Source: Myxococcota bacterium (lineage in GTDB: Bacteria; Myxococcota_A; UBA9160; UBA6930). Taken from it: a stretch of DNA of 64,000 bases. The first letter of the stretch is position 1, and each line of letters begins with the position of its first letter. The position numbers are program-made. The stretch covers positions 3,328,001-3,392,000 of the forward strand of contig OZ245002.1 of NCBI GenBank assembly GCA_965223415.1, written 5' to 3'. Positions 18,001 to 24,000 of the stretch are shown in pieces.

Positions 18001-21000
18001 CATGAAGACCCACGGCGATCCGGGCTGGGAGGCGCTGCCCTCCTACCTCGATGCCCTGGCGCCCCTGGCCCTGGAGCAGCTGGCCCAGCACGAGCTGCGC
18101 ATCACCTTCTTCGTCGTCGGACAGGACGCGGCCCTGGCGTCCAACCGGGCGGCCCTGCGCTCGCTCCACGACGCGGGCCACGAGATCGCCAACCACTCTT
18201 TCCGTCACGAGCCCTGGCTGCACCTCTACGCCGACGACGAGCTGGAGCGCGAGCTGCGGCAGGCCGAGGACGCGATCGGCGACGCCACCGGGGCCAGGGT
18301 GGCCGGCTTCCGCGGCCCCGGCTACAGCCTCTCGCTCCGGACCCTGGAGCTCCTCGCCGAGCGCGGCTACCGCTACGACGCGACCACCCTTCCGACCTGG
18401 ATCGGCCCCCTCGCCCGGGCCTACTACTTTCGGAGCGCAAGGCTCGGTGCGGAGGAGCGCGCCGAGCGCGGCGCTCTCTTCGGCCGCCTGCGCGACGGCC
18501 TCCAGCCCCTAAAGCCGCACCACTGGCAGCTCGGGGAGCGGAAGCTCCTGGAGATTCCGGTGACCGTGCTCCCCCTCGCCCGGGTGCCGATGCACGTGAG
18601 CTACCTGCTCACCCTGAGCGCCGCGTCCCCGGCGGCGGCGCGCGCCTACTTCCGCGCGGGGCTGGCCCTGTGCCGGGCGACCGGCTTCGAGCCGTCGATC
18701 CTGCTCCACCCCCTCGACTTCCTCGGCGCCGACGACGTGTCGGCCCTGGGCTTCTTCCCCGGCATGCAGCTCGAAGGACGGGTGAAACGCGAGCGGGTGG
18801 CGGAGTACCTGGCGGATCTCACGGCCCGGTTCCACGTGGTGCCGATGGAGGCCCACGCCGCTCACCTCGAGGCGCAGCCGCTCGCGCAGCGCCGCCCCTC
18901 CTTCCCGGAGGCCGCAGGCGTGGGCCTGCCGGCGTAGAGAGGTACCCGTTGGCCGGGGCCAGGACGCATCTCCTCACCGTTGCGGTCGAGCACGACTTCC
19001 AGGCCACCGCCCTCGGCCCGGTGATCGCGCCGCGGGAGTGGACGCGGCTCGAGTCCCGCGTGCTCGCGAACACCGTGGCCGCTCTTGACCTGATCGAGGC
19101 CCACGGCGCCCGGGCCACCTTCTTCGTGCTGGGCTGGGTCGCCGAGCGGGCCCCGGAAGTGGTGCAGGAGATCGTGCGCCGCGGTCACGAGGTGGCGAGC
19201 AAGGGCTACCTGCATCGCACGCCCCAGTCGATGGCGCCCGACGAGCTGCGCGACGATGCGCTGCGCGCCAAGGCGGCCCTCCAGAAGGCCGGCGACGTCC
19301 CGGTCCATGGGCACCGGGTCGCGCGGGGGAGCCTGGGCCTCGACGACCTGTGGGTGCTCGACGTCCTGGCCGACGCCGGCTTCGCCTACGACTCGAGCTT
19401 CTACCCGCGGCTGCGCTCGATCCGCCGCGAGCCCTGGCGCCGCTTCCCCCACACCCATACCCACGGCGAGCGCACGATCCGGGAGCTACCGCTCTCGACC
19501 TGGGGGCCCGACGAGCTGCTGTTCCCGATCGCGGGGGGCAACGCCTTCCGCCAGCTCCCGGCGTGGGTGTCCCGGGCGGTGATCGGCGATTGGGAGCAGC
19601 GCTACCAGTCGCCGTTCAACCTGTTCTTCCACATCTGGGAGCTCGATCCGGAGGCGCCGCGCATCGCCCGGGCCCGCGGGCTGCGGCGGCTCCGCCGCTA
19701 CCGCGGCCTCGAGGGTATGCGCGAGCGCATCGAGGCCGCGCTCGAGCGCTTTTCCTTCCAGCCGATCGCGGAGCTGCTCGGTCTGGAGCAGCGGCAGGGA
19801 ATGGTGCCCGTGTCGGCAGTTGGGGGGCACACCGGCGCCCGCGACACAGTGGCTCTCTCGCCGACGGCGACGCCGGTGACGATCGTCGTGCCCTGCTTCC
19901 AGGAGGAAGCGGTCCTGGCCTACACGGCGAAGGTGCTCGAGGAGACCCAGGCGCGCCTCGCCGCCGACTACCGCTTCGAGTACGTGTTCGTCGACGACCA
20001 CTCGCCCGACGGCACCTGGCGCCGGCTCGAGGAGCTCTTCGGTGATCGCCCGGACTGCCAGCTTCTGCACCATCCGGAGAACCGGGGCGTGGCCCAGGCG
20101 ATCCTCACCGGCATCCGCGCGGCGCGCACGGAGATCGTCGCGTCGGTCGACTGCGACTGCACCTACGACCCGGGCCAGCTCGCCGGCATGCTGCCGCTCC
20201 TCGACGCCGGGACGGCGATGGTGACCGCCTCACCCTACCACCGGGAGGGCCGGGTGCTGGGTGTTCCCGGCTGGCGGCTGCTGCTCTCCCGCGGGCTCTC
20301 GCGGCTCTACGCCCTGGTCCTGCCGGAGAGCCCCGCCACCATCACCAGCTGCTTCCGGGTGTACCGACGCTCCAAGCTGCTGGACGTGGAGCCCCGGGAC
20401 GGCGGCTTCCTCGGCGTGGCGGAGACCCTGGCGATCCTGGCGCTCCGGGGCGAGCGCGTCGCCGAGCATCCCGCGGTCCTCGAGTCCCGGCTGCTCGGGG
20501 AGTCCAAGATGAAGGTGCTGGCGACGATCACCGCGCACCTGCGCCTCCTCGCCGACCTGGCCTGGCGCCGCCTGAGCGGGCGCGCGACGGCCTGAGCGCT
20601 TCGGTTATCCTCCACGCCCTGCTCGGTGAGGAGGAGCCCCCCGATGCCCGACGTCTCGATGTGGGCCCGCGCGCTGCGGGTCATGCCCAAGGTCGACAAG
20701 CAGGAGTGGGACGCCCTCGACCTGGTCTCGCGCTGGCTCATCGCGACGCGCTCGGCGGTCCTGGTGATGACCTTCACCTCGGCCGCCTTCGCGGGCCTGC
20801 TCGCCTGGAAGGCCGGCGCCTTCGACGCGGGCCGCTGGCTGCTCGTGACCCTGGGCCTGCTCCTCGCCCACGCCACCAACAACCTGGTCAACGACCTCAC
20901 CGACCACTGGAAGGGCGTCGACAAGGACAACTACTTCCGCACCCAGTACGGCCCCCAGCCGGTCGAGTCGGGCCTGCTGACCACCCGCCAGCTGATGGTC

Positions 21001-24000
21001 TACATCGCGGTCACCGGGCTGGCGGCCGTCGCCATCGGCGCCTGGCTGGTGGCCGACGGCGGCAGCGGGGTGCTCTGGCTGCTCCTGGCCGGCGCGGTCT
21101 TCGTGCTCTTCTACACCTGGCCGCTCAAGTACATCGGCCTCGGTGAGCCGGCGGTGCTGGTGGTGTGGGGCCCGCTCATGGTCGGCGGTGGCTACTACGT
21201 GATCACCGGCGAGTGGAGCACCCCGGTCGCCTGGGCCAGCGTCGCCTACGCCCTCGGGCCGACGGCGGTGCTGTTCGGCAAGCACATCGACAAGCTCAAG
21301 GAGGACGAGGCGAAGGGGATCCACACCCTGCCTGTGATCCTCGGCGAGACGGTCTCGCGCTGGACCGTGGTCGGCATGCTCCTGGCCCAGCTCGGCGTGA
21401 TCGTCTACCTGGTCGCGACCGGCTACTTCCATCCGGTCATGTTGGTCGCGCTGGGTGCCGCGTTCTCCCTGAAGCGCGTGATCGAGGTGTACCGGGATCC
21501 GCGGCCGAACGAGGCGCCGCCGGAGCTGCCGAAGGGCGTCTGGCCGCTCTACCTGGTGGCCACCGCGTTCTGGTACAACCGCCGCTTCGGCGCCTTCTTC
21601 CTGGCGGCCCTGCTGGCGGACGTGGCGATCTCGCGGCTGGCCTAGCCTACTTCCCGTCCAAGAACTCGTAAGTCACTGAGAAGAAAAGGAATTGGCGCAA
21701 ACGCGCCTCCCGATCGAGTTTCGATTGGTGTATGTTAGGTGGTGCCAACCTACCGAACATACACAGCAATTCGCCAACCGGGGGGTGAAGCGATGCGCCG
21801 ATTCCGAGAAACTCAGCTCTCACTCACGCCCACATGGGGTCCGCATCAACATACCCGAGAGCTGCAGATGATCGCCAGGATCCTCGGGGCGGATCCGCGC
21901 TTGGGTGCTGTTGTGCACGGAGATCTGATCGGGGAACGTCGCGCCGATACCGGCCGTCGGGGCCTCAGCGGCGATCAGGTCCTTCGAATCGCCCTACTCA
22001 AGCAGATCCACGGGCTGAGCTACCGGGAGTTGGAGTTTCACCTCCAGGACTCGGCCGCCTTCCGCAGCTTCGTAGGACTCGGGCTCGGTGACTGGCCCCG
22101 CTTCCAGACCCTTCAGGACAACGTCAAACGGATCCGGCCCGAGACGTGGGAAGCCATCCACCGTGCGTTGATCGGCCTGGCTCGCCGGGAAGGAATCGAA
22201 CGAGGCGAGACGATTCGGGCGGATACGACGGTCGTCGAGGCGAACATCCACGAGCCCGCCGACTCGGCCCTGCTCTGGGACAGCGTTCGGGTGATGACGC
22301 GGATTTTGCGAAGGATGGCGAAGCAACGCCCTTCGCTGCGCAAGATGTTCCCGGATCGTCGTCGTTGCGTGAAGCGACGCGCCTACGCGATCAAGTTCCA
22401 CCGGCGGTCGATCAACCTGGTCGCGAGCTATCGGTGCATGATCCGGGCCACGGAAGAGGTCTGCCAAGCGGCCCGTAGCGTCGCGGAGAGGGTCGCCCGA
22501 GTCGAAGACACGACGCCGCTTCGCGAAGAGCTCCTCGCGGTGCTTCCCCTCGTCGAGCGCGTCATCGATCAGAGCCGTCGCCGTGTCCTCGAAGGCGAGC
22601 GCGTCCCTGCAGCCGAGAAGATCGTGTCGATCTTCGAGCCGCACTCGGACATCCTCGTGAAGGACAATCGAGGCACCTACTACGGTCACAAGGTCTGTCT
22701 GACTGGCGGCAGGTCGTCACTCGTCCTCGACTGTGTCATCGAGGAAGGAAACCCTACGGACTCGACGCTGGTCGAACGTACGCTCGAGCGCCATGCAGAT
22801 CTCTTCGGCAAGGCACCCCGCCAAGTGGCGATGGACGGAGGCTTCGCGTCCATGGACAACGTTGCCAAGGCCAAGGCGCTCGGCGTGGAAGACATGGCCT
22901 TCAACAAGAAGAGCGGACTCGAGGTCCACGAGATGGTGCGCAGCGCCTGGGTCTTCCGGCGCCTTCGTGACTTCCGCTCGGGGATCGAGGGCGTGATCTC
23001 GACGCTCAAGCGAGCGTTCCAGATGGACCGATGCACCTGGCGGGGCCTGGCGTCCTTCAAGGCCTATGTCTGGGCCAGTGTGACGAGCTTCAACCTCGTC
23101 GCCTTGGCCCGCCACCTGCTGACTCGCGAGTTCGCCTGAACCCCTGAGAGTGGTTCGGTCGGTGGACACGTGCGCCCGCGCATCGGAACACGGTCGCTCA
23201 CTCACCCCGACGGCTCCGGGACTGCTGTGACATCGCTACTCTCAACGCCCGCGAAGACCGCCAACGATCCACTAAGAGGCCGACGAACGGCTCTTCTCGG
23301 ACGGGAAGTAGCTAGCCTCGATCCCCGGTGGGACTCAAGCGCTTCGACCGCAAGTTCGGCGCCGATCTCCTGCGGGAGCTGCCGGCGGCACCGGGGGTCT
23401 ACCTCTTCAAGGACGAAGACGGCCGGGTGCTCTACGCCGGCAAGGCGAAGGACGTGCGCCGGCGCCTCCAGGGCTACCGCAACGCGAGCCGTCGCAAGGC
23501 GCACCGCAAGATGCGCACCCTCGTACGGGAGGCGGCCGCTCTCGAGGTGCGGCTGCAACCCAGCGAGCGGGACGCGCTCCTGGTCGAGAACGAGCTGATC
23601 CGGACGCTGCGTCCGCCCTACAACGTGGACGGGGCCTACACCTTCCTCTACCCGGCGATCGGGACGGCCGTGCGGCACCATCAGTCCTTCCTGGTGTTCA
23701 CCACACGGGTCGAGGCCTACGGGATGCTACGGCCACGCTGGCACGGCGTCTTCCGCTCCCGCTACCGCACCCGCGACGCCTTCGACGCGCTCGTGGCGCT
23801 GCTCGAGCTGCTTGGCCACCGCGAGCCGCGCTCGCGGCTGCCGGAGCTTCCGCGCCATCGGGGATCGAGCGTCGCCGCCTTCCGCCGCGCCGGGGACTGG
23901 ATGCCCGGCATCGAGCGACTCCTGGCCGGCGAGTGCGAGGCCGTGCTGCGTGCCATCTCCCGCCGGCTCGTCGAGAAGGCCTCCGCCCGTCGCGACGCCG

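What a model noticed while it worked through the whole genome (the two positions that open the first line are those of the whole stretch)
20644..21645. Aerobic respirer with no complete quinone biosynthesis pathway: the whole men operon is lost
This closed genome encodes complex I, Na-NQR, ACIII and several oxidases but no route to a quinone head group: the menGFDHBACE operon is absent, as are futalosine and UbiD genes. Only a long-chain prenyl synthase and a divergent MenA/UBIAD1-like prenyltransferase (g03145) remain, which points to uptake or salvage of naphthoquinones. About four in ten class genomes look the same.
Evidence so far: menD and menA: none here, and both present in the same 12 of 21 class genomes. 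MqnA/D family 0 of 21; no UbiD or chorismate lyase. Congener G017 has the full operon, whose proteins hit only paralogues here (28-51%, none for MenD; call 127). The MenB-like g03261 scores best as BadI. The four UbiA-family genes are cyoE, two DPPR-synthase-like genes and g03145; g03145 relatives occur in 15 of 21.
(Added by a program. Inside this text positions count along the whole contig: contig position 3,328,001 is position 1 of the stretch shown here. "Call 12" and the like, gene names such as g00115 and contig names such as C1 are that model's own, and its searches are not shown. The text may have been shortened before it was handed on; [...] marks where a part breaks off. The agent that wrote the report below was given it as the finding of a first reader that could run no searches.)

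Follow-up and report, generated by a model that had tools for sequence, protein, structure and literature searches.

The report
Aerobe that borrows its respiratory quinone
This oxygen-breathing bacterium has lost every known way to build the ring of its respiratory electron carrier, and most likely takes a ready-made ring from neighbouring microbes and adds its own lipid tail with an unstudied enzyme family, which may help explain why such bacteria resist cultivation.

Summary
Largely confirmed. The single-contig genome (97.3% complete, ends in one open frame) encodes complex I, Na-NQR, ACIII, an Frd-type dehydrogenase and two oxygen reductases, but no Men, futalosine or Ubi head-group route. 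The men operon's site in family relatives is empty here and spanned by short-read contigs. 26 of 104 near-complete class genomes lack both MenD and canonical MenA (a quarter, not four in ten), while the long-chain prenyl synthase is in 104 of 104. All 26 keep some stand-alone MenA-family gene, versus 54 of 78 operon carriers. The g03145 family alone is not enriched (19 of 26 vs 46 of 78). G011, offered as a counter-example, keeps menG and another MenA-family gene. New here: in 196 genomes of a ubiquinone-using gammaproteobacterial family, the g03145 homologue accompanies 71 of 73 MtrB conduits, mostly adjacent, often with a CymA-like gene. Best reading (0.62): naphthoquinone auxotrophy with head-group salvage. 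That mechanism is known from gut, oral and lactic bacteria, but here it would run through an uncharacterised MenA/UBIAD1-like clade with an altered second Asp motif. The substrate is untested. The scan's notes held no earlier report of this.

The parts
20644..21645 (+). g03145: intact 333-aa MenA/UBIAD1-like membrane prenyltransferase. Motif I (N83, D87, D93), R36, Y157-T158 and K162 kept; motif II reads GKHxDKxxxD instead of NNxRDxxxD. The other parts of the system lie outside the window (contig coordinates): empty men-operon site 3759832-3764566, IspB-type synthase 1999083-2000090, UbiE-like gene 1677289-1678053, nqr/nuo 1707609-1725788, ACIII-like operon 3639417-3646866
   Evidence: outside parts
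7502..9055 (+). dnaB-like gene after rpsF-rpsR-rplI (labels from sequence, recalled); directly precedes the g03145 orthologue in congeners G017 and G149
9062..20595 (.). glycan gene cluster lying between dnaB and g03145; absent from that place in G017 and G149; unrelated neighbour
21642..23315 (+). ISNCY-family insertion sequence (transposase 21739-23139) inserted at the stop codon of g03145, leaving the frame intact; near-identical copies at 11 places including this one, one of them split

Best explanation
The organism is a respiring naphthoquinone auxotroph. SHOWN: its lineage lost the whole men operon, including canonical menA and menG; it has no futalosine or ubiquinone route; it keeps a quinone-dependent chain (complex I, Na-NQR, Frd-type dehydrogenase, ACIII feeding A-type and cbb3 oxidases), an IspB-type prenyl-diphosphate synthase and one intact MenA-family prenyltransferase. 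INFERRED: a small soluble naphthoquinone head group released by neighbours (DHNA, or an already methylated one such as menadiol) enters the cell. g03145 then joins it to the long prenyl diphosphate in the inner membrane, giving demethylmenaquinone or menaquinone. Methylation, if any, falls to the UbiE-like gene at contig 1677289 (weak). The stand-alone gene was usually there before the loss (it coexists with the operon in about two thirds of class genomes) and so made repeated loss of the operon possible.
For: Absence tests with controls. Empty site here, in G149 and in G027; single short-read contigs span it in runs X5 and X6. IspB-type gene in 104 of 104 near-complete class genomes, including all 26 operon-less ones; its first Asp-rich region matches E. 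coli IspB. Stand-alone MenA-family gene in 26 of 26 vs 54 of 78 (Fisher p 3.4e-4; family-stratified permutation p about 0.008 on the first count, 52 of 78). G011 keeps menG and a MenH-like fragment in the scar. Only PDB sequence hit and top fold hit is UBIAD1; 30% identity to E. coli MenA. In the family of G151, 71 of 73 genomes with MtrB carry the homologue vs 35 of 123 without MtrB; 54 of the 71 have them within 10 kb. There the gene often heads NapC-like, DmsE-decaheme and MtrB genes; none of 15 such gammaproteobacterial genomes tested has MenD or MqnA/D. CymA needs MK-7 as cofactor (PMC3340143, abstract). Precedent for DHNA salvage: PMC9704088, PMC5738691, 10.1101/2023.03.13.532228 (passages).
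Against: No activity was measured. g03145 fails every MenA model cut-off and forms a clade apart from canonical MenA. The Asp matching UBIAD1 D236 is Lys217, with Asp at 216 instead; mutating that Asp's equivalent nearly abolishes E. coli MenA (PMC4106721, passages). The g03145 family alone is not enriched in operon-less genomes (19 of 26 vs 46 of 78, p 0.15). The pooled association vanishes when stratified by genus (p 0.41, low power), and the pooled class was defined after seeing the data. Canonical menG is left in only 3 of 26, so the usual MenA+MenG salvage pair is not the rule. Four operon-less genomes of 76-88% completeness have no MenA-family gene. No conserved neighbours within the class and no transporter identified. 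G000 has no MtrAB or NapC match, so that link is borrowed from other taxa, is not phylogenetically corrected, and may partly reflect one inherited locus.
Confidence: 0.62

Rival explanations
1. An unknown de novo route makes the head group (a naphthoquinone or a new quinone), and g03145 is its prenyltransferase.
For: PMC13386864 (Discussion, Text S1 passages) reports menaquinone or phylloquinone in species without a recognised pathway. PMC11874023 (passages) found methyl-plastoquinone in aerobes first scored as pathway-less. Chorismate use is intact (TrpE- and PabB-type genes), and three ABC1/UbiB-like kinases and a UbiE-like gene exist.
Against: Losses are scattered over 18 genera and 5 families, with 6 mixed genera. 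The gene has no conserved partners. Two cultured carriers are reported with Q-8 only (PMC13386864 Table S2 rows). No MpqA/UbiA-type gene, chorismate lyase or UbiD/X was found.
Confidence: 0.12
2. Intact menaquinone is taken up from prey or lysed cells; g03145 is incidental or only re-tails cleaved quinones.
For: MK-4 supports some auxotrophs (PMC5738691, PMC9704088 passages). menG is lost with the operon in 23 of 26, as expected if the ring arrives methylated.
Against: The long-chain prenyl synthase is kept in 26 of 26 and a prenyltransferase in 26 of 26. MK-5 to MK-8 did not support P. pasteri (PMC9704088).
Confidence: 0.11
3. g03145 prenylates a non-naphthoquinone acceptor (a phenazine-like or other aromatic compound, or homogentisate), giving a different membrane carrier.
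For: Invariant altered motif II and a separate clade. The gene coexists with full Men or futalosine pathways (46 of 78 in the class; 7 of 34 outside), where a second DHNA enzyme looks redundant. HPPD is present. UbiA-type phenazine prenyltransferases exist (recalled, not checked).
Against: All best family, sequence and fold matches are MenA/UBIAD1, and no homogentisate prenyltransferase model was hit. HPPD sits in a PhhA-HPPD-HmgA-like catabolic operon.
Confidence: 0.12
4. Artefact: the operon is missing from the assembly or too diverged to detect.
For: Metagenome-derived genome; circularity shown only indirectly.
Against: One contig without N and with ends in frame; junction spanned by contigs and shared with G149 and G027; six-frame class-specific profiles; control gene in 104 of 104. 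In congener G017 the operon lies at another place, so the empty site alone does not prove loss.
Confidence: 0.03

Closest known systems
Partial menaquinone pathway / DHNA auxotrophy: Porphyromonas pasteri and Tannerella spp. (PMC9704088), gut quinone-dependent isolates (PMC5738691), Lactiplantibacillus plantarum (10.1101/2023.03.13.532228); Streptococcus agalactiae recalled, not read
   Same: Early men genes lost as a block, patchily among close relatives; respiratory enzymes and a prenyltransferase kept.
   Different: Those are host- or food-associated anaerobes or fermenters keeping canonical menA and ubiE/menG. Here a 5.8-Mb aerobe has lost canonical menA and menG as well, and keeps a separate clade of enzyme.
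MenA (TIGR00751, PRK06080)
   Same: UbiA fold, NDxxDxxxGxD motif I, conserved Arg and Tyr; 30% identity to E. coli MenA.
   Different: Below all cut-offs; motif II GKHxDKxxxD; own clade; never found in the men operon in the loci examined.
UBIAD1 (animal menadiol prenyltransferase, PDB 8djk)
   Same: Best PDB sequence and fold match; stand-alone enzyme in organisms that cannot make the ring; residues matching N102, D112, Y174, T175, K181 and D240 kept.
   Different: The D236 position is Lys; bacterial; long-chain donor presumed; low identity (20% in the structural alignment).
DmkA of the Listeria/Lactiplantibacillus extracellular electron transfer locus
   Same: A second MenA-type gene placed with electron-export genes, as the homologue is in MtrAB loci.
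   Different: Gram-negative porin-cytochrome conduit rather than the flavin-based system; no sequence comparison with DmkA was run.
Lineages scored as lacking quinone pathways in Chobert et al. 2026 (PMC13386864)
   Same: Reports many lineages, notably Chloroflexota, and multiple Actinomycetota/'Deltaproteobacteria' genomes with neither MK pathway.
   Different: The parts read suggest fermentation or undiscovered quinones and do not propose a salvage enzyme. Table S1 was too large to open.

Membership tests
UbiA superfamily | PF01040 over gathering score and UbiA fold | tested here: met
   114.6 vs 34.2 bits; model pLDDT 89, top Foldseek hits UBIAD1, DGGGP synthase and archaeal UbiA homologues
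Canonical MenA | Score over TIGR00751/PRK06080 cut-offs | tested here: not met
   71.9 vs 102 and 83.7 vs 264; an operon MenA scores 244 and 337
Canonical MenA | Motif I Asn/Asp and catalytic Tyr | tested here: met
   N83, D87, D93, Y157 invariant in 23 of 23 aligned rows
Canonical MenA | Motif II NNxRDxxxD | tested here: not met
   GKHxDKxxxD in all 26 rows of the g03145 clade
Canonical MenA | Groups with E. coli MenA | tested here: not met
   Separate clade, SH-aLRT 99, quick tree; relation between the clades unresolved
Canonical MenA / UBIAD1 | Prenylates DHNA or menadiol | not testable with these tools
   needs assay
Men pathway | MenF, D, H, C, E, B present | tested here: not met
Futalosine pathway | MqnA/D, MqnC, UbiD-type decarboxylase | tested here: not met
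   (MqnC-like gene is CofH); MqnB not searched
Ubiquinone / plastoquinone / methyl-plastoquinone pathways | 4-HB prenyltransferase, chorismate lyase, UbiD/X, UbiU/V or UbiH | tested here: not met
MenA+MenG salvage (Porphyromonas type) | Both terminal genes kept | tested here: inconclusive
   Only below-cut-off homologues of each here; canonical menG in 3 of 26 operon-less genomes
Quinone auxotroph | Growth or respiration depends on added naphthoquinone | not testable with these tools
   no culture data

The most novel reading that the evidence does not exclude
The g03145 clade (GKHxDK motif II; at least 6260 sequences) is a dedicated, mobile bacterial counterpart of UBIAD1: a one-gene salvage module that gives a low-potential menaquinone pool to cells with no ring synthesis. 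It would let this aerobic class shed the men operon repeatedly, supply Anaerolineae scored as quinone-less, and give ubiquinone-only Halieaceae the menaquinone that CymA-type/MtrAB electron export needs. Naphthoquinone cross-feeding would then be a general dependency of free-living bacteria, not only of gut and oral ones.
Probability: 0.4. Interest if true: 0.8.

Novelty: new variant of a known kind. Interest (0 to 1): 0.64.

Why it matters
It offers a testable answer to an open item in the 2026 survey of bacterial quinones: how respiring genomes with no known pathway get a quinone. It predicts a cheap cultivation supplement (DHNA or menadione) for a class known here only from genomes. It predicts that Mtr-bearing Halieaceae perform extracellular electron transfer only when fed a naphthoquinone. 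It names an unassayed enzyme family with cultured carriers (Seongchinamella sediminis, Sediminihaliea albiluteola, Longilinea arvoryzae, Nannocystis pusilla).

Tried and rejected
MqnC-like gene: CofH next to CofG. MenB-like gene: BadI next to BadH. MenF-like genes: TrpE in the trp operon and PabB. UbiI-like genes: MhpA-type hydroxylases. UbiX-like gene: CoaBC. Homogentisate route: HPPD is in a catabolic operon. Neighbours of g03145 within the class gave no conserved partner. No men remnants at the empty site. The UbiE-like gene is in 10 of 26 vs 16 of 78 genomes, p 0.06, so not accepted as a fixed partner. Dihydroorotate dehydrogenase scored 181 vs 200 for the quinone class: inconclusive. ESM Atlas gave only generic prenyltransferase clusters. 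Runs X3-X6 come from one study and may be the source data: they test the assembly only. The tree is the quick version; the row cyoE_G011 was cut in a wrong frame and is noise. No complex prediction was run. Paper searches showed no paper on this gene family, on quinone loss in this class, or on its link to mtrAB. PMC8805035 has no occurrence of 'prenyltransferase' in its main text; its supplements were not seen. The library lacks most subscription papers. Scan notes held nothing on this.
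Full report
The genome. G000 is one contig of 5,833,097 bases, 71% GC, without N, rated 97.3% complete. The first 7410 bases and the last 564 bases are open in matching frames with coding-like scores, as expected of a gene running across a circular join. Homologue records of g03145 are titled Myxococcota or Deltaproteobacteria; no tool named the class. I called 5230 genes with a self-trained model and also searched all six frames.

The gene. Window 20644-21645 encodes a 333-aa UbiA-family protein. Its best NCBIfam matches are MenA-type models, none over cut-off. 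It is 30% identical to E. coli MenA. Its only PDB sequence hit and its top fold hit is UBIAD1 (model pLDDT 89). R36, N83, D87, D93, Y157-T158, K162 and D221 match the binding residues described in PMC4106721 (passages read). Motif II reads GKHxDKxxxD instead of NNxRDxxxD, so the Asp matching UBIAD1 D236 is Lys, with an Asp one place earlier. This swap holds in all 26 rows of the clade; the equivalent Asp is needed by E. coli MenA. In a quick tree the family is one clade (SH-aLRT 99) apart from operon MenA. At least 6260 relatives were found among 8000 scored candidates. An ISNCY element sits at its stop codon without breaking it, and a glycan cluster separates it from dnaB, its neighbour in two congeners.

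What is missing. Profiles built from class operons, each tested on a held-out member, found only paralogues (bits control/best here: MenF 494/170, MenD 837/68, MenH 302/149, MenB 522/302, MenC 323/99, MenE 651/396, MenG 377/106). The MenF-, MenB- and MenC-like hits were named by NCBIfam and context; the MenE- and MenH-like ones were not individually scanned. MqnA/D, UbiD and chorismate lyase families give no match, nor do E. coli UbiA, C, D, H, J, T, U, V. The other three UbiA-family genes are heme O synthase and two DPPR-synthase-like genes in glycan clusters. A full-length UbiE-like gene remains below cut-off.

What needs a quinone. Complex I is complete in split loci; NqrA-F all pass cut-off; there is an ACIII-like six-gene operon, an FrdABCD-type dehydrogenase, an A-type and a cbb3 oxidase, and a NorBC-like set. 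No bd oxidase or bc1 was found.

The loss is real. In family relatives G087, G097 and G103 the operon merR-menG-F-D-H/B-A-C-E follows a fixed gene (my g03368, contig 3759832-3760521). Here that gene is followed by one small unrelated gene and then the far flank, and G149 and G027 join the flanks directly. Single short-read contigs span the junction in two of four runs laid, which may be the source data. G011 shows an intermediate scar: canonical menG and a MenH-like fragment only. Caveat: in congener G017 the operon lies elsewhere and the contig ends after the flank gene, so the site's history in this genus is unclear.

Across the class. Of 151 genomes, MenD passes cut-off in 100, canonical MenA in 105 and MqnA/D in 2. 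Among the 104 that are at least 90% complete and at most 5% contaminated, 29 show no MenD, 28 no canonical MenA and 26 neither; two MenD fragments at contig ends were counted as present. The 26 span 18 genera and 5 families. The IspB-type synthase, used as control, is found in 104 of 104, so incompleteness does not explain the gaps. All 26 hold a stand-alone MenA-family gene: 19 of the g03145 clade, 6 of a second type paired with DUF6081 in the loci seen, and G011 a third type. Among 78 operon carriers 52 do, or 54 after a profile re-search of the 26 apparent negatives; Fisher p 1.5e-4 and 3.4e-4, family-stratified p about 0.008. Against: genus-stratified p 0.41; the g03145 clade alone gives 19 of 26 vs 46 of 78, p 0.15; the pooled category was set after seeing the data; four operon-less genomes of 76-88% completeness have no such gene. 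Canonical menG survives in 3 of 26.

Outside the class. The 80 best loci from species genomes include Anaerolineae, Halieaceae, Nannocystis, Desulfobacterales and Bacteroidales. Of 34 carriers that I picked from these 80, 27 have neither MenD nor MqnA/D, 2 have MenD and 5 have MqnA/D; completeness was not given. Three Chloroflexota carriers tested (Longilinea, Thermanaerothrix and one Chloroflexia MAG) have MenG/UbiE over cut-off. In 13 of 17 gammaproteobacterial loci, and none of the other 63, DmsE-decaheme and/or MtrB genes lie downstream, often after a NapC/NirT-type gene. Over 196 genomes of the family of G151 (Halieaceae by the cited table): both genes 71, MtrB only 2, prenyltransferase only 35, neither 88; 54 of 71 within 10 kb (not corrected for kinship). 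CymA uses MK-7 as a specific cofactor (PMC3340143, abstract only), and PMC8805035 (passages) notes that a transferred mtr/cymA cluster works only if menaquinone genes are present. Two cultured carriers are listed with Q-8 only (PMC13386864 Table S2 rows), which fits an enzyme idle without an outside head group. This is the strongest functional hint, but it is guilt by association from another lineage; G000 itself has no MtrAB.

Mechanism. Shown: no known ring synthesis, a quinone-dependent chain, a tail synthase and an intact MenA-family enzyme. Inferred: uptake of DHNA or a methylated naphthoquinone, prenylation by g03145, and a DMK or MK pool (0.62). The common loss of menG fits either DMK as end product or a UBIAD1-like methylated acceptor. 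Rivals: unknown de novo route (0.12), another acceptor (0.12), whole-quinone uptake (0.11), artefact (0.03).

Comparison with what is known. Block loss of early men genes with DHNA dependence is documented for Porphyromonas and Tannerella (PMC9704088, passages), gut isolates (PMC5738691, passages) and L. plantarum (10.1101/2023.03.13.532228, passages; there dmkA mutants still performed electron transfer). PMC13386864 (abstract, three Results sections, Discussion, supplement searches; Table S1 not readable) reports many pathway-less genomes without, in the parts read, a salvage enzyme. PMC11874023 (passages) is the precedent for a hidden pathway. The system works like MenA/UBIAD1 salvage, but g03145 is not a canonical MenA by score, motif II or tree. 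Nine paper searches found nothing on this family or its mtr link, within an open-access library.

Verdict. A real feature and a new variant of a known kind; interest 0.64, because it turns 'no quinone pathway' into a one-gene test in cultured strains.

Noticed in passing
L191:5001-10988, L183, L186, L176, L187 and relatives; family of G151: The g03145 homologue heads NapC/NirT-like, multiheme, DmsE-decaheme and MtrB genes in ubiquinone-using Gammaproteobacteria lacking MK pathways; 71 of 73 MtrB genomes carry it. Worth a study of its own.
   Followed up: yes
L064:6186-7843, L063, L065-L068, L096: A second stand-alone MenA-like type (motif II HHFPQxxxD) lies directly downstream of a DUF6081 gene in all seven loci seen; DUF6081 may act in head-group uptake or release.
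   Followed up: partly
L206:9563-10905 (G011): Deletion scar keeping canonical menG and a MenH-like fragment; the same genome has a third MenA-like type at L092:1435-2325.
   Followed up: yes
L069:7186-9274 (G024): menG-menB-menA mini-cluster in a genome without a MenD match; congener G010 has the operon split in two places.
   Followed up: partly
L026:12213-12962 and other class men operons: A roughly 250-aa MerR-type regulator precedes menG in most class operons and is lost with them; menH and menB are fused in several, and menB was not seen in the operon stretch of some (e.g. L023, L025).
   Followed up: no
window 21642-23315: ISNCY element at the stop codon of g03145; near-identical copies at 11 places, so recently active.
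   Followed up: partly
window 9062-20595: Glycan cluster (epimerase-like, aminotransferase-like, deacetylases, deacetylase-glycosyltransferase fusion) between dnaB and g03145, absent there in two congeners.
   Followed up: no
contig 1707609-1725788 (outside the window): The nqrA-F operon lies almost directly after the main nuo cluster; nuoB, C, D and I are 4 Mb away.
   Followed up: partly
L075, L078 (G091), L076 (G021): Only two class genomes have MqnA/D-family genes, on small contigs; transfer or binning contamination not resolved.
   Followed up: no
L152:519-5996: In a WOR-3 genome the homologue lies downstream of a cytochrome bd subunit II gene and a flavoprotein reductase gene on the same strand.
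   Followed up: no
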